64,000 nucleotides of DNA from an uncultured Candidatus Saccharibacteria bacterium (GCA_964406145.1 CAYOQP010000002.1:13537-77536), one strand, 5' to 3'. Positions 4,204 through 20,333 are shown, counted from the stretch's first letter. The notes: a model not told the origin generated them from the letters alone. Numbers and translations: made by a program.

Positions 4204-4656
4204 TTGCTTAATTGGAAAAAGTTTCGTTATGGCCACTACTATTCTTCCTGTCTCAGTCGGATGATGGCCGCTCTCGAAAATACCGCAGACGAAGCGCGGC
4301 GGATCTTGGCCTTTGTCATTGATCCGACTCTCGTGGAGGTTGTCCCGGAGAGACTGACAGAGCAGTTCGTCGTTGAGATGGTCGAGCTGATGAAGCATGT
4401 GACGCATGATGTTGAGGAAGGGCTCGTCGTTCTCCTCGCTGTCTACATACATGCCAATCCATCGTCTGGCTCACGGCCAGCCATCGTTGAGCGTTTTGAG
4501 AAGATCTGTCTGGATGCGCGTTTCACGGCCGAGATCAGAGCTCTGGCTAATGTGTCAGCGGACCTCAACATCGGGTCGAAGATGCGCAATGTTCGCCCGG
4601 AACATCTGACCTTCGCTCTGCGTTGGCTCACGACAATCATGGAAGAAGGCGATTGA
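4204..4656 (+). CDS. hypothetical protein; GC-rich ORF inserted between rplA and rplJ
   Basis: 150-aa ORF with a TTG start 8 nt after AAGGAG; noticeably higher GC than its neighbours; no recognisable motif. Confidence 0.35.
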   Translation: MLNWKKFRYGHYYSSCLSRMMAALENTADEARRILAFVIDPTLVEVVPERLTEQFVVEMVELMKHVTHDVEEGLVVLLAVYIHANPSSGSRPAIVERFEKICLDARFTAEIRALANVSADLNIGSKMRNVRPEHLTFALRWLTTIMEEGD

Positions 4657-5978: not shown

Positions 5979-7109
5979 ATGGCCTACAAACTTATAAAAA
6001 AATCAGATAGTGGTATCCGTATTGGAGAGCTGACAACGCCTCATGGGAAAATTGAGACGCCTTTTTTTATGCCCGTGGGGACTGTCGGCTCGGTCAAATC
6101 GGTCTCTCCAGATGAATTAAATAATCTCGGTGCGCAAATAGTCTTATCTAATACTTATCATCTTTATCTTCGTCCTGGCGAAAAATTAATCAAGAGTCTG
6201 GGCGGCTTACACGAATTTATGAAGTGGCCGAAGCCAATCTTGACTGACTCTGGTGGCTACCAGGTATTCTCTCTAGGGGACCGATCTGGTCAGAAGGATC
6301 ATTCGCTGGTCAAGATTACAGAAGAGGGGATTGAATTCTCTTCTCATCTTGATGGTAGTAAACATCTCTTCACTCCTGAAAAAGTCATCGATATTCAGCT
6401 AGATCTTGGTGTCGACATCTTGATGCCATTGGATGTCTGTCCAAGTGGTAGGGCTGATACTAACGAAATAAGAAAGTCTGTCGACCTCACTATCGCTTGG
6501 GCCAAGAGAGCAAAAGTTTATTTTGATAAAAAAGTTGCTAAGTTACCTGTCGCAAAAAGGCCGCTTCTTCATGGTATTGTCCAAGGAGGATTAGACAAAG
6601 ATCTGCGCAGATATTGTGCTGAAGAGTTAATAAAGCTAGATTTCGATGGCTATTCTGTCGGTGGCTTAGCCGTCGACCTGGAGACACGCGATATGTGGGA
6701 TATTGTCAAACTGATGGGGGAGATATTACCAGAGAATAAACAGCGCTATCTTATGGGTGTCGGTACGCCTGACGATATAATCCATGCCACAACTCTAGGC
6801 ATGGATATGTTCGATTGTGTCTTGCCGACAAGGCTGGCACGTCATAGCAATGTCTATATTCCGAAGCGCCAAAAGATAGATATGAAGAAATATGACAACT
6901 TCACACTAGTTAATTTACTCAATTCAAAATACAGAACGGATGGGGGAGTGCTTGATAAAAATTGCGATTGCCCTGCCTGCAAAGGGGGATTCAGCCGAGC
7001 TTATATTTCTCATCTTTTGCGATCCAATGAGATATTGGGCCTAAGATTCACGACACTTCATAATCTTTGGCAATATCTCGATTTAATGAGGAAAATAAGA
7101 GCTAATTGA
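5979..7109 (+). CDS. tgt: tRNA-guanine transglycosylase (queuine tRNA-ribosyltransferase)
   Basis: TPHGKIETPFFMPVGT, LTDSGGYQVFSL and the zinc site CDCPACKG...H. Confidence 0.9.
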   Translation: MAYKLIKKSDSGIRIGELTTPHGKIETPFFMPVGTVGSVKSVSPDELNNLGAQIVLSNTYHLYLRPGEKLIKSLGGLHEFMKWPKPILTDSGGYQVFSLGDRSGQKDHSLVKITEEGIEFSSHLDGSKHLFTPEKVIDIQLDLGVDILMPLDVCPSGRADTNEIRKSVDLTIAWAKRAKVYFDKKVAKLPVAKRPLLHGIVQGGLDKDLRRYCAEELIKLDFDGYSVGGLAVDLETRDMWDIVKLMGEILPENKQRYLMGVGTPDDIIHATTLGMDMFDCVLPTRLARHSNVYIPKRQKIDMKKYDNFTLVNLLNSKYRTDGGVLDKNCDCPACKGGFSRAYISHLLRSNEILGLRFTTLHNLWQYLDLMRKIRAN

Positions 7110-7155
7110 TCTCAAAAAGTGCAATCACGCCGCTTTTCTGTCGGCTATTTTGACG

Positions 7156-7184
7156 TTGACACAAACACGAAAATATGTTAAAAT
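7156..7184 (+). promoter_or_regulatory. sigma70-like promoter (TTGACA-17-TAAAAT) at the left edge of the GC-rich island
   Basis: Consensus -35 with 17-bp spacer; AAGGAG RBS before ATG 7242. Confidence 0.5.
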
Positions 7185-7241
7185 ATCGCAAGCTCAGCCT
7201 GGGAAAGATCGAATTCAGGCGAGCTAACAAGGAGCGGGAAC

Positions 7242-7871
7242 ATGCGTACTTTGATAATTTTGAGCCTTGTGCTCACGGTGGCGATCCCGATGATCGTCCT
7301 TACCGGTTGCGGCCAGAAGCAACCGGACCGTGCCCTTTTGGCTGCGGTGGACTACTCTGGCTCGGTTGATTCCAAGGAGCGCGCCGACTACGTCGGCAAG
7401 CTCGAGGAGCTGATCGACCGGCAGGATGGCAAGGCAGAGGTAACACTCTACGTCTTCGCCAAGACGCCGGAAAAGGTCTACTCTGGCCGACCTCTTGACT
7501 TCACCGACTGCTGGTTGGTGGATGACGAGACCAAGGCTCGTGAGGCCGACAAGACTCGTGGAACGAGTCTTGCTCCCACGCTGGAACAGTATTGCAGGGA
7601 TGCAGCTGCTACCAGCCTGCCAGTGATTGCCGTTCTGTTCACAGACGGTGATTGCTTCGATGTCCCGCGTACCAAGGCGGCGGCAAAGAAGCTGGCAGAA
7701 ATGTCTAATTTCAAATGTCTGATGGTCGGACCGCTGACGACCGATAGACTCGGACTAGAGAACAGTACCCTTTCGCCCCTGCGCGATAGTGGTAAGCTGG
7801 TCACTTGTGGCCAGCACGACGTCGCCGACGCGTTCAACACGCTCATGGCGAAAGTGGGAGGCTCCAAATGA
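7242..7871 (+). CDS. vWA-like lipoprotein
   Basis: Lipoprotein signal (LTGCGQ); MIDAS-like DYSGSVD; VIAVLFTDGD. About 60% GC. Confidence 0.55.
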   Translation: MRTLIILSLVLTVAIPMIVLTGCGQKQPDRALLAAVDYSGSVDSKERADYVGKLEELIDRQDGKAEVTLYVFAKTPEKVYSGRPLDFTDCWLVDDETKAREADKTRGTSLAPTLEQYCRDAAATSLPVIAVLFTDGDCFDVPRTKAAAKKLAEMSNFKCLMVGPLTTDRLGLENSTLSPLRDSGKLVTCGQHDVADAFNTLMAKVGGSK

Positions 7872-9190
7872 CAAACCAGCGTTACACCGACGTAGACGAT
7901 CTCCTGGCGGCTGAGCCCCAGGACACTACCGGAGCCCCCACGGCTCCCGATATGGATGTCATGACCCTGCTGCAGCCGATCAATCATGATCTGGCTGCAT
8001 ACCAGACCGCCATCGACGCGATGGCCGCTTCCTACCCGGAAGAGGCGGCGCGTCTGACAGTTCTGCTGTCCCAGCTTCGCGAGACGGGCAACCGTTTCGA
8101 GGATGCTCGTGCTAGCGCAGAAACGCTGCGCAACCAGCTCATCGGACAGCGCCAGACTCAGCGCAATACGATCGAGACCGACCTGAAAACGGTCGTCTCT
8201 GCTCTCGTACCATTGCGTCAGGCCCACGATGCCAAAGCGGCCGCCTTCCGCCTGGAAGCCGCCAAGTATGGTGTCAGTTGTGAGCCGTCTGGCCCCGCTT
8301 ATCAGGCCGCCCTGGCCGAAAAAGCAGGAGTCGTTATTCCGGAAGAGATCCCGGCCCTGCCGGAACTCATGCCGGAACTGACCCAGAAGACCAAGTTGAT
8401 GGGGCTGAGCGACATCTTCGCCTCGATCCTGGTTGGCCTCTTCGTCGCTGTCTGTGTGTTGAGCGCTTTCGGGTTCTTGACATATCGCGCGATGAAGACG
8501 GGGCAAATTGACCCGATCGCCTGGGTCCTTTCCCCGTTCGGTCCCCTCGTTGTCTTGCTCGTCGGCATTGCCATCGCCTGGGTGACCAGGAACCTGCTCG
8601 AGCTGGAGATGGAGGATTCGTCCAAATCCCAGCGCAGCATGGCTTATGGCTCTGCCATTGCGATCGGCGCCATCTGGCTGGCGGAGATGTTCTTAGAGGC
8701 CTACGGTCTCTTCCGTCTCTCTCAGGAGAAGGCTGCCATCGCGGCGCGCATGACTGGGCAACCGGTCGAGGCAACTCCGCTTGCGTTCCTCGTCATCCTG
8801 GCGCTGATCGTCACGACACCGTACTTCGTCTATAAGGCTCTCAAGGCCTACAACGATACGATGCCGCGGATCAAAGCCTGGCGTGAGCGCAAAGCGGCCG
8901 AGCGCCAACGGGCCGAAGCTCTGGCACAGCGCGCCAGCGCCTGCCAAGCCATAGAGACGCTATGTCGCACGACCCCGCGCCTGCGGGACATCGGCGGCAT
9001 TGTCGCTCAAGCGGACGCGCTCGCGTCGCAGATTGAGCCCCTCGAGGCCCGCGAAGTACTGCTCCGGGAATCCTTAGAGGACCTGGAGGGGGAGCCCGAA
9101 CTCCCTGCCCTTACCCAACAGACACTGCTGCGCTTGCGCACCGGTGTCGAGACCCTCGAGCACCAGCTCGTGGAACGTCTCACGACTTGA
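7868..9190 (+). CDS. polytopic membrane protein with N- and C-terminal coiled-coil regions
   Basis: ATGA overlap with the upstream stop; GGGAGG RBS; four hydrophobic helices in the middle; high GC. Confidence 0.55.
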   Translation: MTNQRYTDVDDLLAAEPQDTTGAPTAPDMDVMTLLQPINHDLAAYQTAIDAMAASYPEEAARLTVLLSQLRETGNRFEDARASAETLRNQLIGQRQTQRNTIETDLKTVVSALVPLRQAHDAKAAAFRLEAAKYGVSCEPSGPAYQAALAEKAGVVIPEEIPALPELMPELTQKTKLMGLSDIFASILVGLFVAVCVLSAFGFLTYRAMKTGQIDPIAWVLSPFGPLVVLLVGIAIAWVTRNLLELEMEDSSKSQRSMAYGSAIAIGAIWLAEMFLEAYGLFRLSQEKAAIAARMTGQPVEATPLAFLVILALIVTTPYFVYKALKAYNDTMPRIKAWRERKAAERQRAEALAQRASACQAIETLCRTTPRLRDIGGIVAQADALASQIEPLEAREVLLRESLEDLEGEPELPALTQQTLLRLRTGVETLEHQLVERLTT

Positions 9191-9214
9191 TGCCTTTACC
9201 GGCATCCCTATCAC

Positions 9215-9250
9215 GCCCTCGGCCAACCGGCCGAGGGCGTTGTGTATCTA
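9215..9250 (+). terminator. intrinsic terminator
   Basis: GCCCTCGGCC-AACC-GGCCGAGGGC perfect hairpin followed by a T-rich stretch. Confidence 0.7.
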
Positions 9251-9317
9251 TGGGATTTTTTACTTTGCCATATACATATATATGTATGAAGAAATCATAT
9301 ATAAAGTCAAATTGTTA

Positions 9318-9346
9318 TTGACAAAATAAATTTAGCGTGGTACAAT
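9318..9346 (+). promoter_or_regulatory. perfect consensus sigma70 promoter P1 (TTGACA-17-TACAAT)
   Basis: Seen directly in the sequence. Confidence 0.6.
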
Positions 9347-9531
9347 GCAGCGTTCTGAGGGTGAGTGAGTGGAAGACCTCAGGAGGTGCAAGATCGATTA
9401 AATAATTACGCTACATAGCAAAAGTGGCAGTAGAGTACTGGTAATTCGTTGGCTCCCCTCCGCCTTCGAGTTGCCAGTACTTTGCCGCCAGACGTATCAA
9501 CTTTACCCAGCTCAAAACAGACAATACAGTC

Positions 9532-9560
9532 TTGACAAAAACAGAAAAATGTAGTATAAT
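9532..9560 (+). promoter_or_regulatory. perfect consensus sigma70 promoter P2 (TTGACA-17-TATAAT)
   Basis: Seen directly; lies 214 bp downstream of P1. Confidence 0.6.
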
Positions 9561-10005
9561 ACTCTTATGCACGATAGGAAATGAAGTCGTGAGCAACACA
9601 CAAAATAGTAACGAAAAGCATGAATACTGGCGCATATGATCGAGGGTAATTGCACAGAATCAAGTTTACCTAGAATCAGGCGACAGCGTCCTGCATAATT
9701 CAATCCATCGCAAGATGGAATCGTGGGTTCCCCCTCCGCCCGCGAGAGTTATGCAGAACAGTGTCGCTTTATTTGTCTCAAAAGAGACAATATAGGGTCA
9801 CCTGCACATTAACAATATTATAAACTTTCTCAGCAAAGAATTAGCTAATCACACACTATGGCGCTCGTAACGGCGTAATCTGATCTTGCGATCACTCGCG
9901 CCAGAGGAAACGCCAGAATAGCCCTGATCTCGATTGGCAACTTCTTGCTGAGAAAGCACACTCCAGCCCGTCAATATGACGGATCTTGATAGAAGGAGAA
10001 AGACG

Positions 10006-10899
10006 ATGAATAAACTCGTCACCCTCATCACTTTGTCCGTCATCTTAGTTATGACGGCTGGACTCAACGCATTTGCCGTCTCTGACGGCTATGCCTACGG
10101 CACGGCCCCTGCGCCGACCATGACCAACCCGGCCCCTGTGCCGGCTACCAGTTCTTCCACTGCTACTGCGAAGGCAGAAGCCGTGATCAATCAGATGATC
10201 ACGAAGAAGACCGTTGTGGTCCACCGCCATGGTGGCGGGACCGTAGTCAACGTGCCGCGGCAAGCGGCACCCGTAGTGAATAACTACATCGTGCCGCCGG
10301 CACCGCCGGCAAAGGAGAACGATATGAGTGGAGTACTGATGGGCCTAGTGGTCCTCGGCTGCATCGCGGTTATCGGCGTCATCGCTTGGATCATTACTGC
10401 CGTCATTCAAGGCGGTATGATCGCTCGCACAGAGCAAGCCGCCGCCGCCCGTGAGACCGCACAGCAAAACGCCATCCAGGCCAATGCATTAGCGGCCGCC
10501 AATGCCGCTGCCCGTATCCCTGGGTATGAAGCGCTCAATCTGAGCGTCACGCCCACTGGCCTGCACATGAACGTGCGCCCAGCGAATCCCACGCCGGTCA
10601 TCCCCGCCGCTCCGGTCGCGCCGCCCCCAACGCCGATCATCATCATCCCGCCGGCTGCGCCTGCCCCTGCGGCCCCCGCCGCTCCGGCTGGCTACATGCC
10701 AGCGCCGGTCTTCACCGTAGCGCCGATCACCCTCGTCCCAGTCGGGCACGCTCCGGCACCCGCCCCGGGACCCGCACCTGCTCCGGCACCTGCCCCTGCA
10801 CCTCGTCCCGCCCCGGGACCCGCACCTGCTCCGGCACCTGCCCCTGCACCTCGTCCCGCCGGTGGTGGTGCTCGCCGCCCCGCTCGCACAACCCCGTAA
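10006..10899 (+). CDS. signal-peptide/TM protein with Pro/Ala-rich tandem-repeat C-terminus
   Basis: AAGGAG RBS; N-terminal signal peptide; one internal TM; PAPAPGPAPAPAPAPAPRPA repeated twice (48-bp DNA tandem repeat). Confidence 0.5.
   Translation: MNKLVTLITLSVILVMTAGLNAFAVSDGYAYGTAPAPTMTNPAPVPATSSSTATAKAEAVINQMITKKTVVVHRHGGGTVVNVPRQAAPVVNNYIVPPAPPAKENDMSGVLMGLVVLGCIAVIGVIAWIITAVIQGGMIARTEQAAAARETAQQNAIQANALAAANAAARIPGYEALNLSVTPTGLHMNVRPANPTPVIPAAPVAPPPTPIIIIPPAAPAPAAPAAPAGYMPAPVFTVAPITLVPVGHAPAPAPGPAPAPAPAPAPRPAPGPAPAPAPAPAPRPAGGGARRPARTTP
10763..10858 (+). repeat. 2 x 48-bp perfect tandem repeat encoding the Pro/Ala-rich segment
   Basis: ccccgggacccgcacctgctccggcacctgcccctgcacctcgtcccg occurs twice, head to tail. 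Confidence 0.8.
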
Positions 10900-11017
10900 G
10901 GTTTGTGCGGCAGAGATCCTGTCTCTATGCTCGCCCCCGTGGCGTGCTGGAGACAGTCCTCTGCGAATCATTCCAGACATTCACCCAGCGACCTTGAACT
11001 TGAAGGAGGTTTCAACC

Positions 11018-11569
11018 ATGTCCGACACTCCCGCCGGCACCACCGGCAAAGCGCAGATCAAGCTTCCGCAGCTTCCGCCGGCAGTTGAGCCGGAAGATCT
11101 GCGGACTCGCCTGATGGAAGTGGCAGTTGCCACCCCGTCCGGCGAACGCGCCAAGATGATCGATGCTCTCTCGCGGAAAATGGCCGGTGGCAGCAATGCC
11201 GTCGAGCATCTCCTCGAAGTGATCGAAGACACCAGCGCGGCGCGCGAAGAAATCGTCGGCGCCATCGCCATCCTCATCTCCCCCGCGATCTGGGACAAGT
11301 ACACCAATCCCGATCTGCGTGGAGCTGTCGTCTCCTGGCTCGTGTGGCTGGCCACACAGGAGTTCGACTCCGACATCAGCTTGACCGCGCTGGCGGCAGC
11401 CCAAGCCCTCCTCGCCGAGGGACCGCTCCGCAAGGAGCACGCCAACACAGTCAAAACCTGCATTCTGCAGGCGCGACAGATGGATCCGCCGCTCACCTGG
11501 TCCATCGCCGTCTCGTTCGTCTTCGACTTCGTCGCCAGCAATGGTGGCGAGTCGAAAGACAAGCAATAG
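11018..11569 (+). CDS. hypothetical protein (GC-rich island)
   Basis: GGAGG RBS 7 nt before ATG 11018; high GC; no recognisable motif. Confidence 0.4.
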   Translation: MSDTPAGTTGKAQIKLPQLPPAVEPEDLRTRLMEVAVATPSGERAKMIDALSRKMAGGSNAVEHLLEVIEDTSAAREEIVGAIAILISPAIWDKYTNPDLRGAVVSWLVWLATQEFDSDISLTALAAAQALLAEGPLRKEHANTVKTCILQARQMDPPLTWSIAVSFVFDFVASNGGESKDKQ

Positions 11570-11584
11570 TGAGCATCGCCGCGG

Positions 11585-11648
11585 CCCCCACTCTTCCTGA
11601 AAGGGTGGGGGATTCGCATTTTATAAGGACTTTATTAGTCCTTTTTTT
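11585..11648 (+). terminator. double hairpin terminator at the right edge of the GC-rich island
   Basis: CCCCCACTCTT...AAGGGTGGGGG followed by AAGGACT-TTATT-AGTCCTT and a T7 run. Confidence 0.65.
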
Positions 11649-11667
11649 GGTGCCAATTTTGTCTTAT

Positions 11668-11696
11668 TTGCTTTCGAAAAATAATTGTTTTATGAT
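11668..11696 (+). promoter_or_regulatory. sigma70-like promoter (TTGCTT-17-TATGAT)
   Basis: Precedes the 11741 to 25206 cluster. Confidence 0.45.
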
Positions 11697-11740
11697 GTAA
11701 TAAACAATATAATATATCTAAATTATTTTCTGGAGGGATT

Positions 11741-12100
11741 ATGTCAAGTCAACAAGCACAGGACTCCATTGTTGGTGATATCATTAAAAAAGATCTCATC
11801 GATCTTTTGGGATTAAACGATCTACCTGAGGAGAAGAAAGAAGAGTACCGCAAGACGGCGGCTGAGACAGTCTACAACCGAGCCTTTATCCGTGCTACTG
11901 ATATGCTCGAAGAGATGGGACTACTAGAAGAATACCAGAAGGAAGATCGAGACGAAGAGGGGACTAAAGCCTTTTTTGCGAGTCACGGAATCGATCTGGA
12001 ACAATTGCTTAAAGATGAAGCCTTGATATATAAGACGCAGATGAAGATGTCTGCAGACCTACTGGATGCTGGGATAGACGTAAAAGCCAAAGCGGCTTAA
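11741..12100 (+). CDS. hypothetical small acidic protein
   Basis: GGAGGG RBS; 119 aa. Confidence 0.45.
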   Translation: MSSQQAQDSIVGDIIKKDLIDLLGLNDLPEEKKEEYRKTAAETVYNRAFIRATDMLEEMGLLEEYQKEDRDEEGTKAFFASHGIDLEQLLKDEALIYKTQMKMSADLLDAGIDVKAKAA

Positions 12101-12110
12101 GGGAGGGAAT

Positions 12111-15100
12111 ATGACAGTAGACGGACGAGGTCCATCACCTGAAGAAATGGGAGTAGATGTCAGCCGTGCTGGCGGTGCGGTTGTAGTTGATGCGAGCGAA
12201 GCATCTCCAGATGGTGGTGCTTTTAGTTTGGACGATCTTCCACCAGCAGATGTAGATCCTTTAGCAGGTGAAGATGCAGCTCCTGTTGTAGTTGATGAAA
12301 CACCAGAAGAAGGACTTGTTTCTGCTACTCCAGCCACCCAGGCCGAACCAGTCGCTGGAGCAACACTAGAAAGACCAAAGACTCAACAAGAGCTTGCAAA
12401 AGAAAAGAGAATGACCAAACTTGATGAATCAATCAAAGCGACGGCAAAGTTGGCCGAATCAGGCAAATTGCTGAAAATGGCCAAGTATCGCAAGAAAGAT
12501 GCCGGAGAGCATGTCGTCGATGGTCTTAAAAGCTTTGCCAAAAAAGCTGTCATTGGTGGTGCAATTGGTGGATTTTTTGCTGGTCCTCTTGGAATTCTAG
12601 CTGGTATTGGTGGTGCGGCCGGATCAGAGCTTGGAGTCAGTGTCGGCAAGATCTTTCGCGGTGCAGTCGACAAAATTGGCGAGATGAGTGGCCGCGAAAA
12701 TAAACAAGAAGATCTGAGAAGAGAACTCGAAATTCTCGAATCTGACAGACTTTGTAAATTGGCAGATTTAGCAGTCGCCACAGCAGAAGCAATAAGATTA
12801 CCAGAGGGCGAGAAAATTACTTTCGAAGGCGCTGAGTATACGGCGGATGAAATGCGTCTAAAATATTTTGAATTTGTTACTAAAATGGCTGATCCCAATT
12901 CTGCGGAAAATCAGGCCATGGCAGAGAAAGAGAAGAAATACAAAAAAGGAGAAGTCGGTTGGAAATTATTCAATGGCTTACTTGGTGTTGCTGGCGGCAT
13001 ATTAGCTGGCGGCGCGATAACCGAAGCCATCAGAGCAACACTTACACAACAAATTGCTTTGCATGGTGTTAATATGAAGACTGGCGGTATCGGCGAGCTT
13101 GCTGATACTTATGGCTCAGAGAGTCTAAAGCATATGCAAACCCTAGGCCATAATGTGCATGTGCATAATGGCGGAATAGTTTTTGATTATCAGGGTGGTG
13201 CTGGTGGAGCAGAGCTTCAGGAAATTGGTCAAGCAATGCAGAATGCTCCTGCTTGGCTACAGAATGGTCACTTTTTTAATTCAGAATTAATCCAGCAAGG
13301 CATGCACGAGGCCGAAGGTTTAAGAGCTCAGTTTACTGAGATTGTTGGTCGTGAAGTACAAACAAAAATTTATGGTATTATCGCTGGCATTGGTGCGGCT
13401 TCTGCAGTTGTTGATATGTTTAGGAATGATCGTGGCAAGAAGACTGGTAAAGTCGAGGCTATTTCTAAAGAGACATTATTATCCAGAGATCTTGCGCCGA
13501 CTCCTGCTAGTCCAGCGGCACCTGCGGGGCCAGCGGCACCAGGTGGTGAGGGCGGAGGAGAAGAGCTAGCTCCGATAGAGCTTAGGATCGGTGGTATATA
13601 CGGAGCTCGTACCGATTTGCTTGGTTCTGATGGCGCCGTCATTTTGCCTCGAGACGGCGAAGTCACTTTGGCTAGTGCTGATGCTGCTGCGCGAACAGTT
13701 GTCCTACAGCAGACTAATGCTGATGGGGAGACTGCTACATGGGAAGATTATCCTATCGATCAGTTCCAAACAAATTTTATTTATCTTAGAGGTGGCGCTG
13801 CGCCAGAAACATCAACAGAAGAAGATGAGAATGAAGAGCTTGAGCCTGGTGAAATATCAGCAGATGAGCAAGCCGAGCTTGATGATATGCCGGAGAACGA
13901 GCGGGAGTTCATGGAGGCTGCCTATGCTTTACGTGGTGCAAGGGGCCCAATCGCCAGAGCTGAGAGAGAAAATCCCGACGATGAAGTTACATATGTTGGC
14001 GAGGGCACATTCCAAACTTATCAAGATTTGATGGATGCTGGAGATACGGCTGGATTCGACATTTGGTGGAGCGGCCCAGAATATGGCCATATTCCAAATG
14101 TTGGGACAGCAGAATTTGTAGTTACGGGAGTTGTCTGTAGCCGCAATCCAGATGGCCAACTTCGTGTTGATTTCGAAATTGATATTATTGCAGAACCCGA
14201 TCCAGATATATTGGCTCGAGGCTATGAAAGAAAAGGCTTCTTTAATGAAGCTGGTAATAATGAGTTTGATGCCGAAGCTTTCAGGACCGCAGTAAATGAG
14301 GCATCCTTAACGGAGCCAGTAATAATTAGATTGTCTGATGGTCAAGTACTTCATGCCAATCCTAGTTCAGCTGGAAATGAGGGTTTTTCAATATTCAATC
14401 CAGATAATCCAGATAATCCACCTCAGCCGATAAAGTACAACGAGCTTACAGAAGAAGGTTTGAGTGGTGCTCTGGGTGTGGACTGGTACGTCAAAAAAAG
14501 TACGGAGCCGGTAGTAGAAGAAGCACCACTGGCTGATGGCGAGGACGAAGTTGTGCCTCTGCCAGGAGGCTCAGATGCAGACGCTGAAGTGCCGCTTATT
14601 ACTGAGAAAGAGGCTGGTCTTAATGAAATAAGGACACTGGTTAATCGTCTTGCGGCAGTCGGCCCAGTCAAGGCGGTTAGACACGAAGGCGCAAACGATG
14701 ATATTATTGATCCTGACCCAGGAAAAGTTGATAAATGGTTTCAATTTCATGATGAGATCATTGCGAAGAAGAGCGACTCTGTCTCTATCAGTTTTGTCAC
14801 GGAGGGTATAGAGACTTTTACTGATGGTTCTGAGTATATGCTAACTATAGATGGGACTCCAGAAATTTCAGAAGATGCAGATGGCAAAGTTAAGATTATC
14901 ATCAAGGGTCGTGCTGAAGCTGTCTCTGGTCCTGCGGAAGAGTCTGAATTGCCGGCGCCCGAGGGCGATCCGGCCGCGGCGGAGAAAGAAAGAATCCGTC
15001 AAGAGATCAATGATCTAGCAGTAGAATTGGTGGCTTTTGGGTCGGTAAAGATGAGAAGAACGGACACTGGTGCCGAGTCGCTTGACCCTGGATTTTTCCC

Positions 15101-16814
15101 TGCTTATTTAAAACTCAAAAATACCGCTGAAAGTAACGGCTATGAATTCCGACATACAATTGTTGGAATGAACGCTCTCGCTTCTGGGACAGAATTTTCA
15201 GCTATCTACGATTCTCAAGAGATAATTCAAGATCCAGACGGTAAAATGATTATTAAGGTGGTTGCTCATGTTGAGACGGCTCCAGCGCCAGCAAATCCTG
15301 AAGCTGATTTAGAGTCAGATATTTCTGGTAGTGAAGTTTTGGTTAATGCGGCTACTGGGGAAATCAATCCACCTTCAGCTGTTTCGGCCAAATATCCAGA
15401 TAAACGTTTTTCAATCAAGCCAGACCTGTCCTTCAATAAACCAGCCGTTGATTTTTATGCAAAGATTGATTTAGCGGCTGATTCATTTGGCATTACCCCT
15501 GATCCAGAATATCCTGATCATTTATTTGTTCCAATTACGCTAAAGCCGGCTGATGGTTTCACTGAAGCTGAGCGTGGAGGTTTTTTCCTTGAAGTTGATA
15601 TTTTCGGAAGAAATTGGGATAAATTCAACACTCGTTTCGCTAATCGCGAGACTAGCGGCGAAGTCTTCACTTTGCGTGACAGGAATTTAATTGAGTATAC
15701 GATTACCGGTCAGGATGGCGATGATTATATTATGACTTCAGCTGCAGGTGAGACGAGAATGACAGCCGACAAAATTAAGGCAAACATTGTTGACTGGTAT
15801 GCAAAGGCAGGTGAGGTGTCGACTGGAGCCCCAGAGACTGAGAATACTACGGATGCCCCACCTTCCCCAGAAGCCGGCACGGAGACGACAATTGATGCTG
15901 ATGTTGAAGCTTTAAGCGCACAATTCGTCGGAAAAGAATTTGAGTTTACGAGTCCGACTGATTTTCACAACGTTGAGGCTGATGGTTTTACGCTTGATGA
16001 TCAGATGAAGAAACTTGTAGAGAAATATCCAGATTTTTCAGCCAAGCCGATGTGGTTTTTGCCTGAGTCTGCTTCTGGCAAAGCCAGGATTTCCTCTATA
16101 AAAAAATACGAAAAAGAAGGTTATAAGTATTTTATGGTCAAGTTTGATATTGAAGAACTTAACCCCGATGCAATTTTATCTGCCGCTGGTTATGAACAAA
16201 GAGGAACATTACAAAGTGGGATAAAAGGAAATAATTTAGAGAAATATAAAAAGGCAATAGATTCGGGCGAACAGGTAGTTGTAAGAGATTATAAAGGTGG
16301 TATTTATCTAATGACAGGAAAAAATGCGACCACAGGTGATAGATACTGGGAGGGCAGACCATTCGATCCTATTACTGGTACAATTGGAGAGCCAGTTCCT
16401 AGTTTCGCTATGCCAGTTGACTGGTATGTAAAAAAGGCTGATGGCGGTGCTCCAGTCGGAGAGCCTGCGACTGATACTGGCACAACAGAATCTCCTGTCG
16501 ACGAACCACCAGCTGAAAGATTGCCCTTTGAGCGACTAGAGAATGGCCGTATTCGACTAAATTATCCAGATGGCAAGACCATAGAGCTCGGCGGACCGGA
16601 ATCAGTCACATTGCCGATAACTGAAAAGGGTGAGAAAAAAGATGCTACTGGAGTAATAATGAGTGTCAAGTTTTCGCCGCCAGTGACTGAAGAAACCGAC
16701 CTAGATATCAAGCTTCTAAAGGAAGGATCTACTAGGCTTTCAAAAGTTACTTATAAAGTTAGCGAATTAAAACAATATTTATTAGAGAAGAATCCTGGGC
16801 TACTTAGAGGATAA
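12111..16814 (+). CDS. giant acidic protein (1567 aa) with a Gly-zipper segment and internal DWYVKK repeats
   Basis: GGGAGGG RBS; uninterrupted 4.7 kb ORF; GGAIGGFFAGPLGILAGIGGAAG segment; repeated (V)DWY(V/A)K(K/A) motif three times. Confidence 0.6.
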   Translation: MTVDGRGPSPEEMGVDVSRAGGAVVVDASEASPDGGAFSLDDLPPADVDPLAGEDAAPVVVDETPEEGLVSATPATQAEPVAGATLERPKTQQELAKEKRMTKLDESIKATAKLAESGKLLKMAKYRKKDAGEHVVDGLKSFAKKAVIGGAIGGFFAGPLGILAGIGGAAGSELGVSVGKIFRGAVDKIGEMSGRENKQEDLRRELEILESDRLCKLADLAVATAEAIRLPEGEKITFEGAEYTADEMRLKYFEFVTKMADPNSAENQAMAEKEKKYKKGEVGWKLFNGLLGVAGGILAGGAITEAIRATLTQQIALHGVNMKTGGIGELADTYGSESLKHMQTLGHNVHVHNGGIVFDYQGGAGGAELQEIGQAMQNAPAWLQNGHFFNSELIQQGMHEAEGLRAQFTEIVGREVQTKIYGIIAGIGAASAVVDMFRNDRGKKTGKVEAISKETLLSRDLAPTPASPAAPAGPAAPGGEGGGEELAPIELRIGGIYGARTDLLGSDGAVILPRDGEVTLASADAAARTVVLQQTNADGETATWEDYPIDQFQTNFIYLRGGAAPETSTEEDENEELEPGEISADEQAELDDMPENEREFMEAAYALRGARGPIARAERENPDDEVTYVGEGTFQTYQDLMDAGDTAGFDIWWSGPEYGHIPNVGTAEFVVTGVVCSRNPDGQLRVDFEIDIIAEPDPDILARGYERKGFFNEAGNNEFDAEAFRTAVNEASLTEPVIIRLSDGQVLHANPSSAGNEGFSIFNPDNPDNPPQPIKYNELTEEGLSGALGVDWYVKKSTEPVVEEAPLADGEDEVVPLPGGSDADAEVPLITEKEAGLNEIRTLVNRLAAVGPVKAVRHEGANDDIIDPDPGKVDKWFQFHDEIIAKKSDSVSISFVTEGIETFTDGSEYMLTIDGTPEISEDADGKVKIIIKGRAEAVSGPAEESELPAPEGDPAAAEKERIRQEINDLAVELVAFGSVKMRRTDTGAESLDPGFFPAYLKLKNTAESNGYEFRHTIVGMNALASGTEFSAIYDSQEIIQDPDGKMIIKVVAHVETAPAPANPEADLESDISGSEVLVNAATGEINPPSAVSAKYPDKRFSIKPDLSFNKPAVDFYAKIDLAADSFGITPDPEYPDHLFVPITLKPADGFTEAERGGFFLEVDIFGRNWDKFNTRFANRETSGEVFTLRDRNLIEYTITGQDGDDYIMTSAAGETRMTADKIKANIVDWYAKAGEVSTGAPETENTTDAPPSPEAGTETTIDADVEALSAQFVGKEFEFTSPTDFHNVEADGFTLDDQMKKLVEKYPDFSAKPMWFLPESASGKARISSIKKYEKEGYKYFMVKFDIEELNPDAILSAAGYEQRGTLQSGIKGNNLEKYKKAIDSGEQVVVRDYKGGIYLMTGKNATTGDRYWEGRPFDPITGTIGEPVPSFAMPVDWYVKKADGGAPVGEPATDTGTTESPVDEPPAERLPFERLENGRIRLNYPDGKTIELGGPESVTLPITEKGEKKDATGVIMSVKFSPPVTEETDLDIKLLKEGSTRLSKVTYKVSELKQYLLEKNPGLLRG

Positions 16815-17780: not shown

Positions 17781-20333
17781 ATGTACAGTGGAGGGAATTA
17801 TTATAATAGCGATCCAGGATTATTCGCGGATGGAATTCCGTGGTATTTTTGGTTGATCGGCGTAATTGTTATTATTGTTTTGGTTGCGATTTTCTATCAA
17901 TGGATCAGGCTCTGGATTCTAGCTCGTTTTCAAATGAGGCTTTCTAAGGACTGGGTCATGTACAAGATTTTGGTGCCGAAAGAACGACATGCCGAGGAAG
18001 ATGATCAGCGCAAGAATTTCCAGGAAATGCTAGCAGTTATTGAGCCATTCTATGCTAATCTAAATGCACTCTTTGATAATTCGATGATCAAGAAAATGAC
18101 TGGTCAGGTCAATGTCTCACTCGAAATTATCGCCAAAGACAATGTCATTTCTTTTTATGTTGGTTGTCCGAGAAAAATATCAGAGATTGTTTTGAAAAAT
18201 CTTCATTCTCAGTACGCTCATGCCGAGATTACTGAGGATAATAATTTTTCAATTTTTCCCAAGAAACCTCTTCAGATTGATATTCTGAATCTAAAGCTAA
18301 TCAAGAGATATTTGTTCCCGATTAAGACATACAAGAATCTCGAGGAAGATCCTCTCAATGCTTTGTCAAATTCGCTTTCTAAGCTTACACTTGATCAGCT
18401 GGCTGGAGTACAGATAATGCTGAGACCGACCTCTGGAATGTGGAGATTGCCGATCGAGCGCGCAGCCTTCAATATTCAGCATGGAAAATCGAGAATTTCT
18501 TATTCCTCATCGGCTACAGTCCGAGCCTCTGAAGCCTTTTTCAATTTCATTGGGCAAGCAGCTAATAATGCGACAGGCAAGGGCGAGGAACAACACACCG
18601 AATTTTATGATCCAAAAAATCCCATGAAAGTAACACCGATGCAAGAAGCACAGGTCAAGATGCTTGGCGAGAAGGCGGCTAAACTTGGATTTGAATGTCA
18701 AATTAGAGTTGTGGCGGTTGCTGAGACAAAGGATCAGGCCAAGCAATTGTCTCGACATGTTGCTGGCGCCTTCAATCAGTTCAATTCTCCTGATGCCAAT
18801 GGTTTTGTGACTAAGGAAGTTAAAAAAATGTCAGAGGAATTAGCCAACTATATCTTTAGGGTTTTCGGTCGGGGGCCGAGACTAATTCTTAATACTGAAG
18901 AGCTGGCTTCACTGTTTCATTTCCCAAATCGTTTTGTTGACACACCTAACATTGTTTGGCTGCTTGCCAAGAAGGAGGCGCCGCCAGCAAACTTGCCAAC
19001 CGAAGGCACGATTCTTGGCAAAGCCCTTTACCGTGGTCAGGAGCAGATGATCAAGATCAAACAGGGCGACAGACTTAGACACTTATACCAGATCGGTAAG
19101 ACCGGCGTGGGTAAGACTGTCCTTTTCCAGAACATGATTCTGCAGGATATTCTTGAGGGTAATGGCGTCTGTTATCTGGACCCGAATGGTGACGCGGCCG
19201 AGTGGATATTGAATCATATACCCAAGGAGCGTGCTGACGATGTCATCTACTTCAACCCAGCTGATCGAGAAAGGCCGATGGGTCTCAATATGTTGGAGTG
19301 GAAGACGTCTGATCAGAGAGACTTTTTGGTCCAGGAAGCTATTCAAATTTTTTACAAGCTTTTCGATCCCAATCAGACCGGTATTGTTGGTCCACAGTTT
19401 GAGCACTGGATGCGCAATGCCTCACTGACTTTAATGTCTCACCCTGATGGTGGCACCATCATCGATATCCCGAGACTCTTTACTGATCCAGATTTCGAAA
19501 AGAGTCGAGTCAAATATGTCAAAGATCCAGTTGTCAAATCATTCTGGGAGAAGCAGATGGCCAAGACGGCGGATTTCCATAAATCTGAAATGTTAAACTA
19601 CTTTACCTCAAAGTTTGGTCGTTTCATGACCAACGATATGATGCGCAATATTATTGGTCAGACCAAGTCATCTTTTGATTTCCGAGACATTATGGATAAT
19701 AAGAAGATTTTGATCTGTAATCTCTCGAAAGGTTTGATAGGGGAGATCAACGCATTTCTGCTGGGTATGATAATAGTTTCCAAGATCGCGATGGGAGCCT
19801 TCTCTCGCCAAGATATTCCAGAGAGTGAGCGTATCCCATTCTTTCTCTATGTTGATGAGTTTCAGAACTTTGTGACTGAGGTTTTTGCCACCATCTTGTC
19901 TGAGTCAAGGAAATACAAGCTGTCTCTAAATATTACTAATCAGTATATCGAACAGCTTGATGAGAAGATTAGAGCGGCTGTAATAGGTAATGCCGGCACA
20001 TTGGTGGCCTTTCGAATGGGTGCGGCTGACGCAGAATTTTTCGTCAAGGAATTTGAGCCGCTAAAGCCGGAGGACTTAACGACAATTGATAAGTATAATT
20101 TCTATATCAAAATGCTGATTGATGGGGCACCAACCAAGCCGTTTAACGGTCAAAGTATCTGGCCTGATGATCCAGAAGGAAATCCGAAGCTTGGAGCGGC
20201 GATTAAGGAGCTTTCCAGGATGAAATATGGCAAACCCAAAGAGATGATTGAGACGGAAATCCTAGAACGATCCAAAGTTGCTTCTATTGATTTACCAGGC
20301 CTACAGCCAACTTCAAACCAGCCCACTCTTTAA
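17781..20333 (+). CDS. membrane-anchored FtsK/HerA-superfamily P-loop ATPase (VirD4/TraG/VirB4-like)
   Basis: N-terminal TM; Walker A GKTGVGKT followed by DPNGD; Walker B FFLYVDEFQNF. Confidence 0.7.
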   Translation: MYSGGNYYNSDPGLFADGIPWYFWLIGVIVIIVLVAIFYQWIRLWILARFQMRLSKDWVMYKILVPKERHAEEDDQRKNFQEMLAVIEPFYANLNALFDNSMIKKMTGQVNVSLEIIAKDNVISFYVGCPRKISEIVLKNLHSQYAHAEITEDNNFSIFPKKPLQIDILNLKLIKRYLFPIKTYKNLEEDPLNALSNSLSKLTLDQLAGVQIMLRPTSGMWRLPIERAAFNIQHGKSRISYSSSATVRASEAFFNFIGQAANNATGKGEEQHTEFYDPKNPMKVTPMQEAQVKMLGEKAAKLGFECQIRVVAVAETKDQAKQLSRHVAGAFNQFNSPDANGFVTKEVKKMSEELANYIFRVFGRGPRLILNTEELASLFHFPNRFVDTPNIVWLLAKKEAPPANLPTEGTILGKALYRGQEQMIKIKQGDRLRHLYQIGKTGVGKTVLFQNMILQDILEGNGVCYLDPNGDAAEWILNHIPKERADDVIYFNPADRERPMGLNMLEWKTSDQRDFLVQEAIQIFYKLFDPNQTGIVGPQFEHWMRNASLTLMSHPDGGTIIDIPRLFTDPDFEKSRVKYVKDPVVKSFWEKQMAKTADFHKSEMLNYFTSKFGRFMTNDMMRNIIGQTKSSFDFRDIMDNKKILICNLSKGLIGEINAFLLGMIIVSKIAMGAFSRQDIPESERIPFFLYVDEFQNFVTEVFATILSESRKYKLSLNITNQYIEQLDEKIRAAVIGNAGTLVAFRMGAADAEFFVKEFEPLKPEDLTTIDKYNFYIKMLIDGAPTKPFNGQSIWPDDPEGNPKLGAAIKELSRMKYGKPKEMIETEILERSKVASIDLPGLQPTSNQPTL

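What the first reader, a model, noticed from the sequence alone, without database searches (positions are those of the whole stretch)
7156..11650. About 60% GC sub-island encoding a vWA-like lipoprotein, a translationally coupled coiled-coil polytopic membrane protein, a Pro/Ala-repeat membrane protein and a hypothetical protein
GC content and codon style contrast sharply with the flanks. The sub-island is bounded by a consensus promoter (7156-7184) and a double-hairpin terminator (11585-11648). vWA domains paired with membrane partners are a recurring theme in conflict and signalling systems.
Basis: partly seen in the sequence, partly recalled or inferred. Interest (0 to 1): 0.65.

Follow-up and report, generated by a model that had tools for sequence, protein, structure and literature searches.

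The report
GC-rich island with vWA membrane pair
A 4.5-kb stretch of unusually GC-rich DNA in an AT-rich freshwater bacterium is real but composite: its core is a rare, unnamed two-gene unit (a metal-binding vWA surface lipoprotein plus a four-pass membrane partner), followed by two strain-specific orphan genes, and what it does is still untested.

Summary
Window 7242-9190 (GC 0.60) and 9976-11569 (GC 0.63; GC3 0.65-0.78) stand out from a 0.40-GC chromosome (GC3 0.30-0.47). The promoter at 7156-7184, the ATGA gene overlap and the double-hairpin terminator are all present.

It is not one four-gene unit.
- **Block A (7110-9386)** is a self-contained operon: a near-consensus promoter, a lipoprotein with a confident vWA fold and an intact MIDAS metal site, an overlapping 440-aa partner with four TM helices, and its own terminator.
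- **A 735-bp low-GC spacer** follows, with two further promoters and two long hairpins.
- **Block B** then carries a Pro/Ala-repeat membrane protein and a 183-aa orphan.

A relative about 11% diverged shares block A and its junction with the TGT (tRNA-guanine transglycosylase) gene. It does not match 9387-11683 at either contig end.

The vWA gene is followed at once by a 440-530 aa partner-type gene in 7 further family members (colinear; pairwise similarity significant in 4), and by a cut-off ORF in an eighth. Their gene neighbourhoods differ, and the pair is usually GC-richer than its flanks. The partner matches no Pfam, NCBIfam, PADLOC or PDB family.

Nothing supports a conflict system: there is no NTPase, no effector and no defence-model hit. 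My best reading is a horizontally spread, integrin-like surface binding or signalling pair. Interest is moderate.

The parts
7156..7184 (+). Promoter P1 of the vWA-partner operon (TTGACA-17-TAAAAT, TG extended -10). It lies in an AT-rich intergenic region that is 97% identical to the relative over 7110-7208.
7242..7871 (+). Gene 1: 209-aa membrane-tethered vWA protein. Signal peptide plus lipobox LTGC (Cys23). MIDAS residues D37-x-S39-x-S41, T108 and D135.
7868..9190 (+). Gene 2: 440-aa partner whose start overlaps the gene 1 stop (ATGA). It has an N-terminal 180-aa helical region, four TM helices (183-201, 217-235, about 258-280, 303-321), an invariantly acidic residue E277 at the end of TM3, a PY..YK motif at the end of TM4, and a C-terminal 120-aa helical region.
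9204..9262 (+). Intrinsic terminator of block A: a nested GC-rich hairpin followed by U6. The relative carries one compensatory T-A to C-G change in the stem.
9318..9346 (+). Promoter P2 (11/12, TG), conserved in the relative. It is followed by a small hairpin at 9353-9385.
9425..9490 (+). Long hairpin 1 with a C-rich loop (CTCCCCTCCGCC).
9532..9560 (+). Promoter P3 (12/12 consensus), about 440 nt upstream of gene 3.
9674..9773 (+). Long hairpin 2 with a similar C-rich loop (TCCCCCTCCGCC). It lies within a strongly structured leader (z -5.9).
10006..10899 (+). Gene 3: 297 aa from the ATG at 10006, which has the better Shine-Dalgarno sequence (307 aa if the start is 9976). It has a signal peptide ending in AFA, a short ectodomain, one TM helix and a Pro/Ala-rich tail. 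No family match.
10759..10860 (+). Perfect 48-nt tandem repeat, 2.1 copies, encoding PAPGPAPAPAPAPAPR. Two independent assemblies break here.
11018..11569 (+). Gene 4: 183-aa soluble orphan with a GAAGGAGG Shine-Dalgarno sequence and GC3 0.78. No hit in Pfam, NCBIfam, PADLOC, PHROGs or PDB.
11581..11650 (+). Double-hairpin terminator. Similarity to the relative resumes just downstream, weakly from 11651 and clearly from 11684.

Best explanation
The region is a composite, horizontally acquired addition to an AT-rich, small-genome-type chromosome. It sits between the TGT gene and a gene for a 119-aa DUF5663-like protein that is followed by a giant ORF.

Block A (7110-9386) is a self-contained operon that exists as a rare, mobile two-gene module in unrelated genomes. 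It encodes a vWA domain tethered to the outer face of the cytoplasmic membrane by a lipid or a TM anchor, and a four-TM partner whose long N- and C-terminal helical regions lie in the cytoplasm.

**Proposed mechanism (inferred, not shown).** The vWA domain uses its MIDAS-bound divalent cation to bind an acidic ligand outside the cell. It sits on the partner's conserved outer loop 3, where the invariantly acidic residue at the outer end of TM3 (E277) is a candidate MIDAS ligand. Binding outside would then be coupled, integrin-style, to the partner's cytoplasmic helices, which act as a scaffold or signal output. In an organism of this type the likely use is surface or host-cell attachment, or envelope sensing.

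Block B (about 9387-11683) is a later, strain-variable addition of two orphan envelope or cytoplasmic genes, driven by its own AT-rich promoters.
For: **Shown**
- GC and GC3 contrast.
- Identical junctions in independent assemblies and the same left junction in an 11%-diverged relative.
- Purifying selection on both block A genes, dN/dS 0.10 and 0.13.
- vWA fold: pLDDT 91, pTM 0.84; Foldseek PDB hits are integrin I domains, BatB, ArnB and TRAP at E about 1e-7; the family profile hits PDB vWA domains down to E 2.7e-8.
- MIDAS residues D37 and T108 are invariant, and S39, S41 and D135 are conserved in at least 90% of 33 aligned homologues. Of 64 full-length family representatives, 56 have a hydrophobic N-terminus and 53 have both MIDAS motifs.
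- The exhaustive search finds only 74 representatives. The closest outside this lineage is 43% identical.
- In the 8 other family members whose DNA was read (L005, L007, L008, L010, L012, L014, L017, L018), the vWA gene is followed at once by a partner-sized gene. Spacing runs from an 8-nt overlap to a 31-nt gap. Seven are full length (440-528 aa); the L018 copy is cut by the contig end. The flanking genes differ among the six loci that have flanks.
- All seven full-length partners align colinearly. Pairwise similarity to the window partner is significant for four: E 8e-7 with L005, 7e-8 with L010, 4e-13 with L017, 5e-4 with L014. It is marginal for L007 (0.013), and tblastn found no hit for L008 or L012. 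They share the same four-TM layout and conserved motifs.
- The vWA protein is 41% identical to the L008 copy, while RmuC from the same two genomes is 23% identical.
- Block A has its own terminator, with one compensatory change in the relative.
- The relative's contigs match the window only up to 9386 and again from 11684.

**Inferred:** the N-in/C-in topology (large hydrophilic N-terminus with no signal peptide; K/R-rich segment after TM4), the vWA-loop 3 contact, and the function.
Against: - No experimental or co-folding evidence that the two proteins interact.
- The partner model was poor (pLDDT 50), so its fold and any coiled coil are unverified.
- No integrase, transposase, tRNA or convincing flanking repeat explains how the DNA got in.
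- No GC-rich donor with a close homologue was found. The nearest relatives (35-43% identity) all sit in low-GC contexts and are themselves GC-enriched there. That fits a long-resident, compositionally odd gene pair as well as it fits recurrent transfer.
- The host lineage was not determined.
- The relative's contigs are short, so absence of genes 3-4 from its genome is not proven. Only their absence at both junctions is shown.
Confidence: 0.5

Rival explanations
1. The pair is not a recent import. It is a long-resident module of a low-GC lineage that keeps a gene-specific high GC3, through selection on synonymous sites or biased gene conversion. On this view the composition is a property of the module, not a timestamp of transfer.
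For: - In five low-GC contexts the module has GC3 of about 0.63-0.74 against 0.37-0.49 next door, although the proteins are only 35-43% identical: window, L014, L017, L018 and the partner gene of L010.
- The three with readable upstream sequence (window, L017, L018) each carry an AT-rich, near-consensus promoter.
- Synonymous divergence from the relative is lower in the island (dS 0.39 [0.28-0.54] and 0.39 [0.31-0.46]) than in both flanking core genes (TGT 0.83 [0.61-1.24]; 119-aa gene 0.64 [0.42-1.08]).
- A DUF5663-like gene paired with a large protein lies near the module in the window, L018 and L012.
Against: - Gene neighbourhoods otherwise differ in every locus.
- The vWA protein is more similar between the window and L008 (41%) than RmuC is (23%).
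- The module takes the host's GC in GC-rich hosts: L012, L007 and L005.
- The dS contrast comes from one pair of genomes and a crude Nei-Gojobori estimate.
- Other GC-rich genes of unrelated kind sit nearby (genes 3-4 and 4204-4656 in the window; several in L010), which looks like general gene influx.
Confidence: 0.2
2. It is an anti-phage or other conflict system, for example a surface lipoprotein that blocks phage entry or triggers a membrane-disrupting four-TM effector.
For: - Sporadic distribution, atypical composition and a variable neighbourhood are typical of defence genes.
- vWA domains recur in conflict systems (PMC7159879).
- The four-TM protein could in principle act as a pore.
Against: - No PADLOC match below E 0.08, and the two weak hits are to the helical N-terminal region.
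- No MoxR or other NTPase, nuclease, protease or other effector domain in 7156-11650.
- No hit to phage, plasmid or viral-contig collections.
- Known vWA conflict systems use cytoplasmic vWA with an ATPase; here the vWA domain is extracytoplasmic.
- Flanks are housekeeping genes, not defence islands.
Confidence: 0.12
3. The whole 4.5 kb is cargo of one integrative or transposable element that inserted downstream of TGT in a single event.
For: - Sharp compositional edges at 7110-7240 and about 11650.
- An imperfect 26-nt inverted repeat at 7093-7118 / 11644-11669, 73% complementary.
- Many family members assemble as 2-3 kb contigs that end at the module edges.
Against: - No integrase, transposase or recombinase, no tRNA, and no direct repeats.
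- The inverted repeat is AT-rich and weak.
- There is an internal terminator, a low-GC spacer and promoters between the two blocks.
- The relative shares only the left block.
Confidence: 0.08
4. It is an assembly chimera or contamination that joins GC-rich DNA from another organism to this contig.
For: The extreme GC step, and the fact that contigs break inside gene 3.
Against: - Two independent Logan assemblies are 100% identical across the left junction, and a third assembly (the Lake Mendota co-assembly contig, DNA not readable) carries the same called genes in the same order through to the 119-aa gene and the giant ORF.
- A diverged relative has the same left junction.
- The promoters and spacer between the blocks have host-like composition.
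- The contig breaks are explained by the 48-nt tandem repeat.
Confidence: 0.02

Closest known systems
Integrin alpha I domains, with tetraspan partners such as tetraspanins or occludin as an architectural analogy
   Same: - Extracellular vWA / I-domain fold with a MIDAS DxSxS-T-D site. The best Foldseek PDB hits are integrin alpha1, alpha2 and alphaM I domains (E about 3e-8 to 1e-6).
- The partner has four TM helices, probably N-in/C-in, with a cytoplasmic helical tail. That is the general layout of occludin and the tetraspanins.
   Different: - Sequence identity is 12-17% only.
- Here the vWA domain is a separate 209-aa lipoprotein, not part of a heterodimeric receptor.
- The only sequence link to occludin is a non-significant coiled-coil hit (E 0.098).
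- No homology with tetraspanins was shown. The analogy concerns how it may work, not membership.
CglB, the vWA lipoprotein adhesin of Myxococcus xanthus gliding focal adhesions (PMC9946355)
   Same: A bacterial lipoprotein built around a vWA domain, used at the cell surface and coupled to a membrane machine (abstract seen).
   Different: - CglB is an outer-membrane protein of a diderm and works with the large Glt machinery.
- Here there is only one partner gene, of an unrelated and unnamed family.
- No sequence relationship was tested beyond the shared fold class.
BatA/BatB aerotolerance vWA membrane proteins (PDB 3ibs, 4jdu)
   Same: Small bacterial membrane-anchored vWA proteins. They are among the top fold matches (TM-score 0.57-0.63).
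   Different: From my own knowledge, not tested here: Bat operons carry MoxR, DUF58, TPR proteins and several vWA genes. None of these is present here. Identity is 16%.
vWA-MoxR, ternary and TerY-type conflict or stress systems (Kaur et al. 2020, PMC7159879)
   Same: A vWA domain in a small, horizontally mobile gene cluster. The weak Pfam hits are to the DUF2201 and TerF-like vWA families.
   Different: - These systems are defined by an accompanying AAA+ or STAND NTPase, or by a kinase/phosphatase, plus effector domains. None is present.
- Both Pfam hits are below the gathering score.
- The vWA domain here is extracytoplasmic.
ArnB / VWA2 of Sulfolobus (PDB 5a8j, 8s05)
   Same: Second- and third-best PDB sequence-profile hits (E 7e-7 and 1.8e-6), and a fold match.
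   Different: From my own knowledge, not tested here: ArnB is cytoplasmic, has a Sec23/24-like extension and pairs with the FHA protein ArnA. None of this is present here.

Membership tests
von Willebrand factor A (vWA) domain superfamily | Rossmann-like alpha/beta fold with alternating strands and helices | tested here: met
   AlphaFold2 on a 33-sequence alignment gave pLDDT 91 and pTM 0.84, with a beta-alpha repeat pattern. The 50 listed Foldseek PDB matches are almost all vWA or I domains at probability 1.00.
von Willebrand factor A (vWA) domain superfamily | MIDAS metal site: DxSxS, a Thr, and an Asp in a TDG-like motif | tested here: met
   D37-Y-S39-G-S41, T108 and D135-G136 are present. 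D37, T108 and G136 are invariant, and S39, S41 and D135 are at least 90% conserved in 33 homologues. 53 of 64 representatives have both motifs. Metal binding itself was not tested.
von Willebrand factor A (vWA) domain superfamily | Score above the curated threshold of a Pfam vWA family | tested here: not met
   DUF2201 scores 21.3 bits against a cut-off of 26.4. vWA-TerF-like scores 18.1 against 29.4. The family profile nevertheless hits PDB vWA domains at E 2.7e-8. It is therefore a divergent, unmodelled vWA subfamily.
Bacterial lipoproteins | Signal peptide ending in a lipobox [LVI][ASTVI][GAS]C | tested here: met
   The N-terminus reads MRTLIILSLVLTVAIPMIVLTG-C23. At least 23 of 64 family members have a strict lipobox; most of the others have a hydrophobic N-terminal segment instead. 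Lipidation itself is not testable with these tools.
vWA-MoxR / ternary conflict systems (Kaur et al. 2020) | Adjacent MoxR-type AAA+ or STAND NTPase, and effector domains | tested here: not met
   No ATPase or effector domain in any of the four genes, nor among the called genes around the module in the relatives' loci (precomputed Pfam hits). Paper read.
Known anti-phage defence systems (PADLOC-DB 2.0) | Match to a defence-protein model | tested here: not met
   No hit for genes 1, 3 or 4. Gene 2 has only E 0.08-0.09 hits in its helical N-terminal region, to LmuB and ZorA.
Genomic island acquired by horizontal transfer | Composition and codon use deviating from the host chromosome | tested here: met
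   GC 0.60-0.63 against 0.40, and GC3 0.65-0.78 against 0.30-0.47.
Genomic island acquired by horizontal transfer | Mobility hallmarks: integrase or transposase, tRNA target, flanking direct repeats | tested here: not met
   No such domains, no tRNA in the window, and only a weak AT-rich 26-nt inverted repeat at the edges.
Genomic island acquired by horizontal transfer | Patchy presence among relatives, and homologues in unrelated genomes at other sites | tested here: met
   9387-11683 is not matched at either junction in the closest relative. Block A homologues lie in different neighbourhoods in the six further family members that have readable flanks. An empty site was not found.
Partner protein: any described family | Significant match to Pfam, NCBIfam, PADLOC, PHROGs or a solved structure | tested here: not met
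   The best Pfam hit for the window protein is E 0.049 (HemY_N), and no family is shared by the homologues. NCBIfam gives none. PHROGs gives E 0.064. The best PDB profile hit is E 0.011, to a coiled coil.

The most novel reading that the evidence does not exclude
The vWA lipoprotein and its tetraspan partner form an integrin-like outside-in adhesion or signalling unit. Small-genome, probably episymbiotic, AT-rich bacteria either capture it repeatedly or keep it GC-rich by selection at synonymous sites. On this reading the GC-rich state is a maintained property of the module rather than a mark of recent transfer.
Probability: 0.15. Interest if true: 0.7.

Novelty: new variant of a known kind. 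Interest (0 to 1): 0.4.

Why it matters
Membrane-tethered vWA proteins are known, but this pairing is in none of the protein-family, defence-system or solved-structure libraries I could search. It combines an extracytoplasmic MIDAS-vWA lipoprotein with a dedicated four-TM partner that has long cytoplasmic helices.

If the pair is a minimal two-protein link from the outside of the cell to the inside, it would be a simple bacterial counterpart of integrin-type coupling. It would also be a candidate attachment or sensing device in poorly known, small-genome freshwater bacteria.

The repeated finding of a GC-rich copy inside AT-rich genomes, with lower synonymous divergence than its neighbours, is a small but testable puzzle about how foreign or compositionally odd genes persist.

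If none of this holds, the region is still a clean, well-bounded example of a layered gene insertion next to a core gene cluster.

Tried and rejected
- **Word-index homologue searches.** For genes 1 and 2 these returned only the 92-93% relative. The profile version returned 3 proteins.
- **GTDB species-representative genomes.** Two scans (gene 2 alone; a four-sequence vWA alignment) found no relative.
- **JGI metagenome scan.** It found only the 1.04-Mb contig already in hand.
- **Mobile-element collections.** Viral contigs, phage genomes and plasmids gave no hit for the genes queried: genes 1, 2 and 4 against viral contigs and plasmids, genes 1 and 2 against phage genomes. Gene 3 was not queried.
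- **RNA searches.** Rfam on 6500-12500 found nothing at E up to 1. There is no tRNA in the window.
- **Partner structure.** Only two near-identical sequences were allowed into the job. The model had pLDDT 50, so no fold search was run on it. The AFDB50 fold library was unavailable.
- **Genes 3 and 4.**
  - No family or PDB hit.
  - No relative in any fetched locus.
  - The third genes beside the module in L005 and L012 are unrelated.
  - Supporting calls: 7, 33, 44, 45, 71, 72, 91.
- **Giant ORF.** The idea that the downstream giant ORF is shared with module-bearing relatives was rejected: only a weak hit to the L018 771-aa protein (E 8e-4) and none to L012.
- **Host lineage.** It could not be determined. 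Accession searches showed only that one source is the Lake Mendota co-assembly.
- **5' UTR hairpin at 7190-7225.** It is not better than shuffles (z -1.15).

Full report
**1. The observation**

The window averages 0.416 GC. Two stretches stand out: 7242-9190 at 0.603 and 9976-11569 at 0.634. The remainder is 0.403. All 1500-bp windows above 0.52 GC start between 6701 and 10901, and the sliding profile shows sharp steps at about 7200 and 11600.

The contrast lies in codon use, not only in amino-acid content. GC3 of the four genes is 0.67, 0.74, 0.65 and 0.78, against 0.30-0.47 for nearly every other gene measured.

|---|---|---|
| Promoter 7156-7184 | 11 of 12 consensus positions, with an extended -10 | 53 |
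| Gene 1 / gene 2 coupling | Stop and start overlap as ATGA at 7868-7871 | 4, 70 |
| Double hairpin at 11581-11650 | -36.8 kcal/mol, z -4.05; second hairpin followed by a T-run | 53, 88 |
| Pro/Ala repeat | Perfect 48-nt unit, 2.1 copies | 102 |

**2. Not an artefact**

Two independent Logan assemblies are 100% identical to the window. The exact gene 1 protein also lies on a 39-kb contig of the Lake Mendota co-assembly that has the same called genes in the same order, although that contig's DNA could not be read. The two Logan contigs both stop at 10788, inside the tandem repeat, which explains the breaks.

A relative from another sample (L003) has the same TGT-to-vWA junction and is about 89% identical in DNA across the block A genes.

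**3. Context**

Upstream lie RF2, Pth, L1, L10, L7/L12 and TGT. Downstream lie a 119-aa gene, a 1567-aa ORF with no domain, two paralogous TraG/VirD4-like ATPases, SecDF, an AddA-type helicase-nuclease, FtsA/FtsZ, enolase, RelA and ClpB. This is a cellular chromosome of low GC. The gene content resembles small-genome (CPR-like) bacteria, but the lineage was not established.

**4. The island is composite**

Gene 2 is followed by a strong terminator at 9204-9262 (z -5.9). Its stem shows a compensatory T-A to C-G change in the relative.

Next comes a 735-bp spacer at 0.42 GC. It has two more near-consensus promoters (9318-9346, 9532-9560) and two long hairpins with similar C-rich loops.

The relative's contigs match the window up to 9386 (L003) and again only from 11684, weakly from 11651 (L016). 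The 271 nt upstream of that point in L016 match nothing in the window.

- Block A, with its promoter and the first spacer promoter, is therefore shared by the two lineages.
- The stretch holding the second promoter unit and genes 3-4 is not found at either junction.
- The relative's contigs are short, so I can say the arrangement differs. I cannot say that genes 3-4 are absent from its genome.

**5. Gene 1**

Pfam gives only sub-threshold hits to two vWA families. An exhaustive HMMER search of 1.84 billion representatives found 74 proteins at E up to 0.001. Nearly all are 200-250 aa and match over their full length. The best outside this lineage is 43% identical.

In an alignment of 33 of them, D37, T108 and G136 are invariant, and S39, S41 and D135 are at least 90% conserved. 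That is the complete MIDAS site.

The family profile hits solved vWA domains at E down to 2.7e-8. AlphaFold2 on the alignment gave pLDDT 91 and pTM 0.84. The 50 listed Foldseek matches in the PDB are almost all vWA or I domains: integrin alpha1/2/M, BatB, ArnB, TRAP and pilus adhesins.

The N-terminus is a signal peptide ending in the lipobox LTGC. Across 64 full-length representatives:
- 56 have a hydrophobic N-terminus;
- at least 23 have a strict lipobox;
- 53 have both MIDAS motifs.

The domain is therefore tethered to the membrane on the outside.

**6. Gene 2 and the two-gene module**

I read the DNA around eight other family members: L005, L007, L008, L010, L012, L014, L017 and L018. In each, the vWA gene is followed immediately on the same strand by a partner-sized gene. 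Seven are full length at 440-528 aa; in L018 it is cut off by the contig end. Spacing ranges from an 8-nt overlap to a 31-nt gap, and four-nucleotide ATGA-type overlaps occur in four loci.

The partners are only 17-25% identical. All seven full-length ones align colinearly. Pairwise similarity to the window protein is as follows:
- significant for four: E 8e-7 with L005, 7e-8 with L010, 4e-13 with L017 and 5e-4 with L014;
- marginal for L007, at E 0.013;
- not detected by tblastn for L008 or L012.

All share:
- a hydrophilic N-terminal region of about 180 aa with no signal peptide;
- four hydrophobic helices;
- an invariant Pro before TM1 and an invariant Gly in TM2;
- an invariantly acidic residue (E277 here; E or D in all nine sequences aligned) followed by [AG]-x-G at the end of TM3;
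- a relatively conserved loop;
- a Y..YK-type motif at the end of TM4;
- a K/R-rich helical tail.

No Pfam, NCBIfam, PADLOC, PHROGs or PDB family matches the partner. Only two near-identical sequences could be used for structure prediction. That model was poor (pLDDT 50) and shows only that the protein is all-helical, with helices up to 77 residues long.

**7. Genes 3 and 4**

Gene 3 most likely starts at 10006, which has the better Shine-Dalgarno sequence. It then has a signal peptide ending in AFA, a short ectodomain, one TM helix and a Pro/Ala-rich tail.

Gene 4 is a soluble 183-aa protein with a strong Shine-Dalgarno sequence.

Neither has any family, structure or locus match. The genes that follow the module in other genomes are unrelated to them.

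**8. Origin**

The gene neighbourhoods differ among the six relatives that have readable flanks. Examples are UMP kinase/Sua5/ThyX in a 1.04-Mb contig, SecY/PIF1 in another, and sugar-metabolism genes in a third.

The window and L008 share a vWA protein at 41% identity but an RmuC at only 23%. No relative was found in GTDB representatives, plasmids, phages or viral contigs. There is no integrase, transposase, tRNA or convincing flanking repeat. Horizontal spread of the two-gene module is the simplest reading.

One pattern complicates it. The module is also GC-enriched in the other low-GC loci:

| Locus | Module GC3 | Adjacent sequence |
|---|---|---|
| L014 | 0.69 | flanking genes, GC3 0.41-0.49 |
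| L017 | 0.66 | upstream non-coding DNA, GC 0.39 |
| L018 | 0.63 | flanking genes, GC3 0.41-0.44 |
| L010 | partner only, 0.63 | low-GC flanks |
| L008 | mildly enriched | low-GC flanks |

In GC-rich hosts the module matches the host. These low-GC copies are only 35-43% identical to the window protein.

**9. Divergence from the relative**

| Gene | dS (95% bootstrap range) | dN/dS |
|---|---|---|
| vWA (island) | 0.39 [0.28-0.54] | 0.10 |
| Partner (island) | 0.39 [0.31-0.46] | 0.13 |
| TGT (flank) | 0.83 [0.61-1.24] | about 0.04 |
| 119-aa gene (flank) | 0.64 [0.42-1.08] | about 0.04 |

Both island genes are under purifying selection, so they are functional. Their lower synonymous divergence has two possible explanations. 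Block A may share a more recent ancestor than its flanks, through later exchange. Or synonymous sites in the module may be constrained. One genome pair and a simple estimator cannot decide between these.

**10. Mechanism (inferred)**

*Topology.* The large N-terminus has no signal peptide and the segment after TM4 is K/R-rich, which points to N-in/C-in. That places loops 1 and 3 outside, next to the tethered vWA domain.

*Contact.* The most conserved part of the partner is the end of TM3 and loop 3, including the invariantly acidic residue. MIDAS sites typically complete their metal coordination with a ligand carboxylate; that is general knowledge of integrin I domains, not tested here.

*Proposal.* The vWA domain docks on loop 3. 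Binding of an external acidic ligand at the MIDAS site changes this contact. The change is passed through the four-helix bundle to the long cytoplasmic helices, which act as a scaffold or signalling output.

*Likely use.* In a small-genome bacterium with a neighbouring giant, fast-evolving ORF and type-IV-secretion-like ATPases, a role in attachment or envelope sensing is plausible.

I put about 0.85 on the anatomy: a composite island and a conserved two-gene membrane module. I put about 0.3 on this specific mechanism.

**11. Comparison with known systems**

Fold and motif place gene 1 in the vWA superfamily, as a divergent subfamily with no existing model. It is not a member of the vWA-MoxR, ternary, TerY or Bat systems, whose defining partners are absent. 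It is not a known defence system.

The closest functional analogies are integrin I domains with tetraspan partners, and the myxobacterial vWA lipoprotein adhesin CglB. The occludin similarity is a non-significant coiled-coil hit.

**12. Verdict**

The finding is real and well bounded, but it is two layered insertions rather than one four-gene unit. The core is an undescribed variant of membrane-tethered vWA systems. Genes 3-4 are orphans. Interest is moderate (0.4).

The most novel reading not excluded is a minimal integrin-like coupling device whose GC-rich composition is maintained, or repeatedly re-imported, in AT-rich genomes.

Noticed in passing
window 9241-9975: A low-GC spacer sits inside the island. 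It has two near-consensus promoters (9318-9346, 9532-9560) and two long hairpins (9425-9490, 9674-9773) whose loops share a C-rich motif, CTCCCCTCCGCC / TCCCCCTCCGCC. That motif occurs 3 times in the window at up to 1 mismatch, against 0.2 expected. The folds have z -4.8 and -5.9, and there is no Rfam match. These could be small RNAs or a long structured leader for gene 3. The relative has a 31-nt insertion in the loop of the first small hairpin.
   Followed up: partly
window 4204-4656: A 150-aa ORF with GC 0.53 and GC3 0.61 sits between the L1 and L10 ribosomal protein genes. It has no family beyond a sub-threshold 'Ovate' hit. It looks like another foreign gene inserted in a core cluster.
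   Followed up: partly
window 12111-16814 and L016:699-2639: The 1567-aa ORF with no domain is only 68% identical over its first 650 aa to the relative's copy. The adjacent 119-aa gene is 94% identical and the vWA gene 92%. It appears to be a fast-evolving, possibly surface-exposed protein.
   Followed up: partly
window 11741-12100; L018:2765-3115; L012:241-606: The 119-aa gene is a distant relative of DUF5663 proteins: 36% identity to the L018 protein (E 5e-18) and 32% to the L012 protein. A DUF5663-like gene paired with a large domain-less protein lies next to the vWA module in the window and in L018, and about 7 kb away in L012. Whether this reflects function or shared lineage is unknown.
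   Followed up: partly
window 17781-20333 and 22060-25206: Two paralogous (35% identical) TraG/VirD4-type coupling-protein-like ATPases flank a 168-aa gene and a sigma-70 region 4 plus HARE-HTH protein.
   Followed up: no
L010:5212-7788 and 10187-11533: In another low-GC locus that carries the module, several unrelated neighbouring genes are also GC-rich (GC3 0.59-0.72). They include a 222-aa membrane protein just upstream of the vWA gene. This suggests general influx of GC-rich genes into these genomes.
   Followed up: no
window 7093-7118 and 11644-11669: An imperfect 26-nt inverted repeat (73% complementary, AT-rich) sits exactly at the two outer edges of the island. It is probably chance.
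   Followed up: no
window 7110-7208: The intergenic promoter region upstream of the vWA gene is 97% identical to the relative, while the adjacent TGT coding sequence is 87% identical with half of its synonymous sites changed. The region is either under strong constraint or more recently shared.
   Followed up: partly
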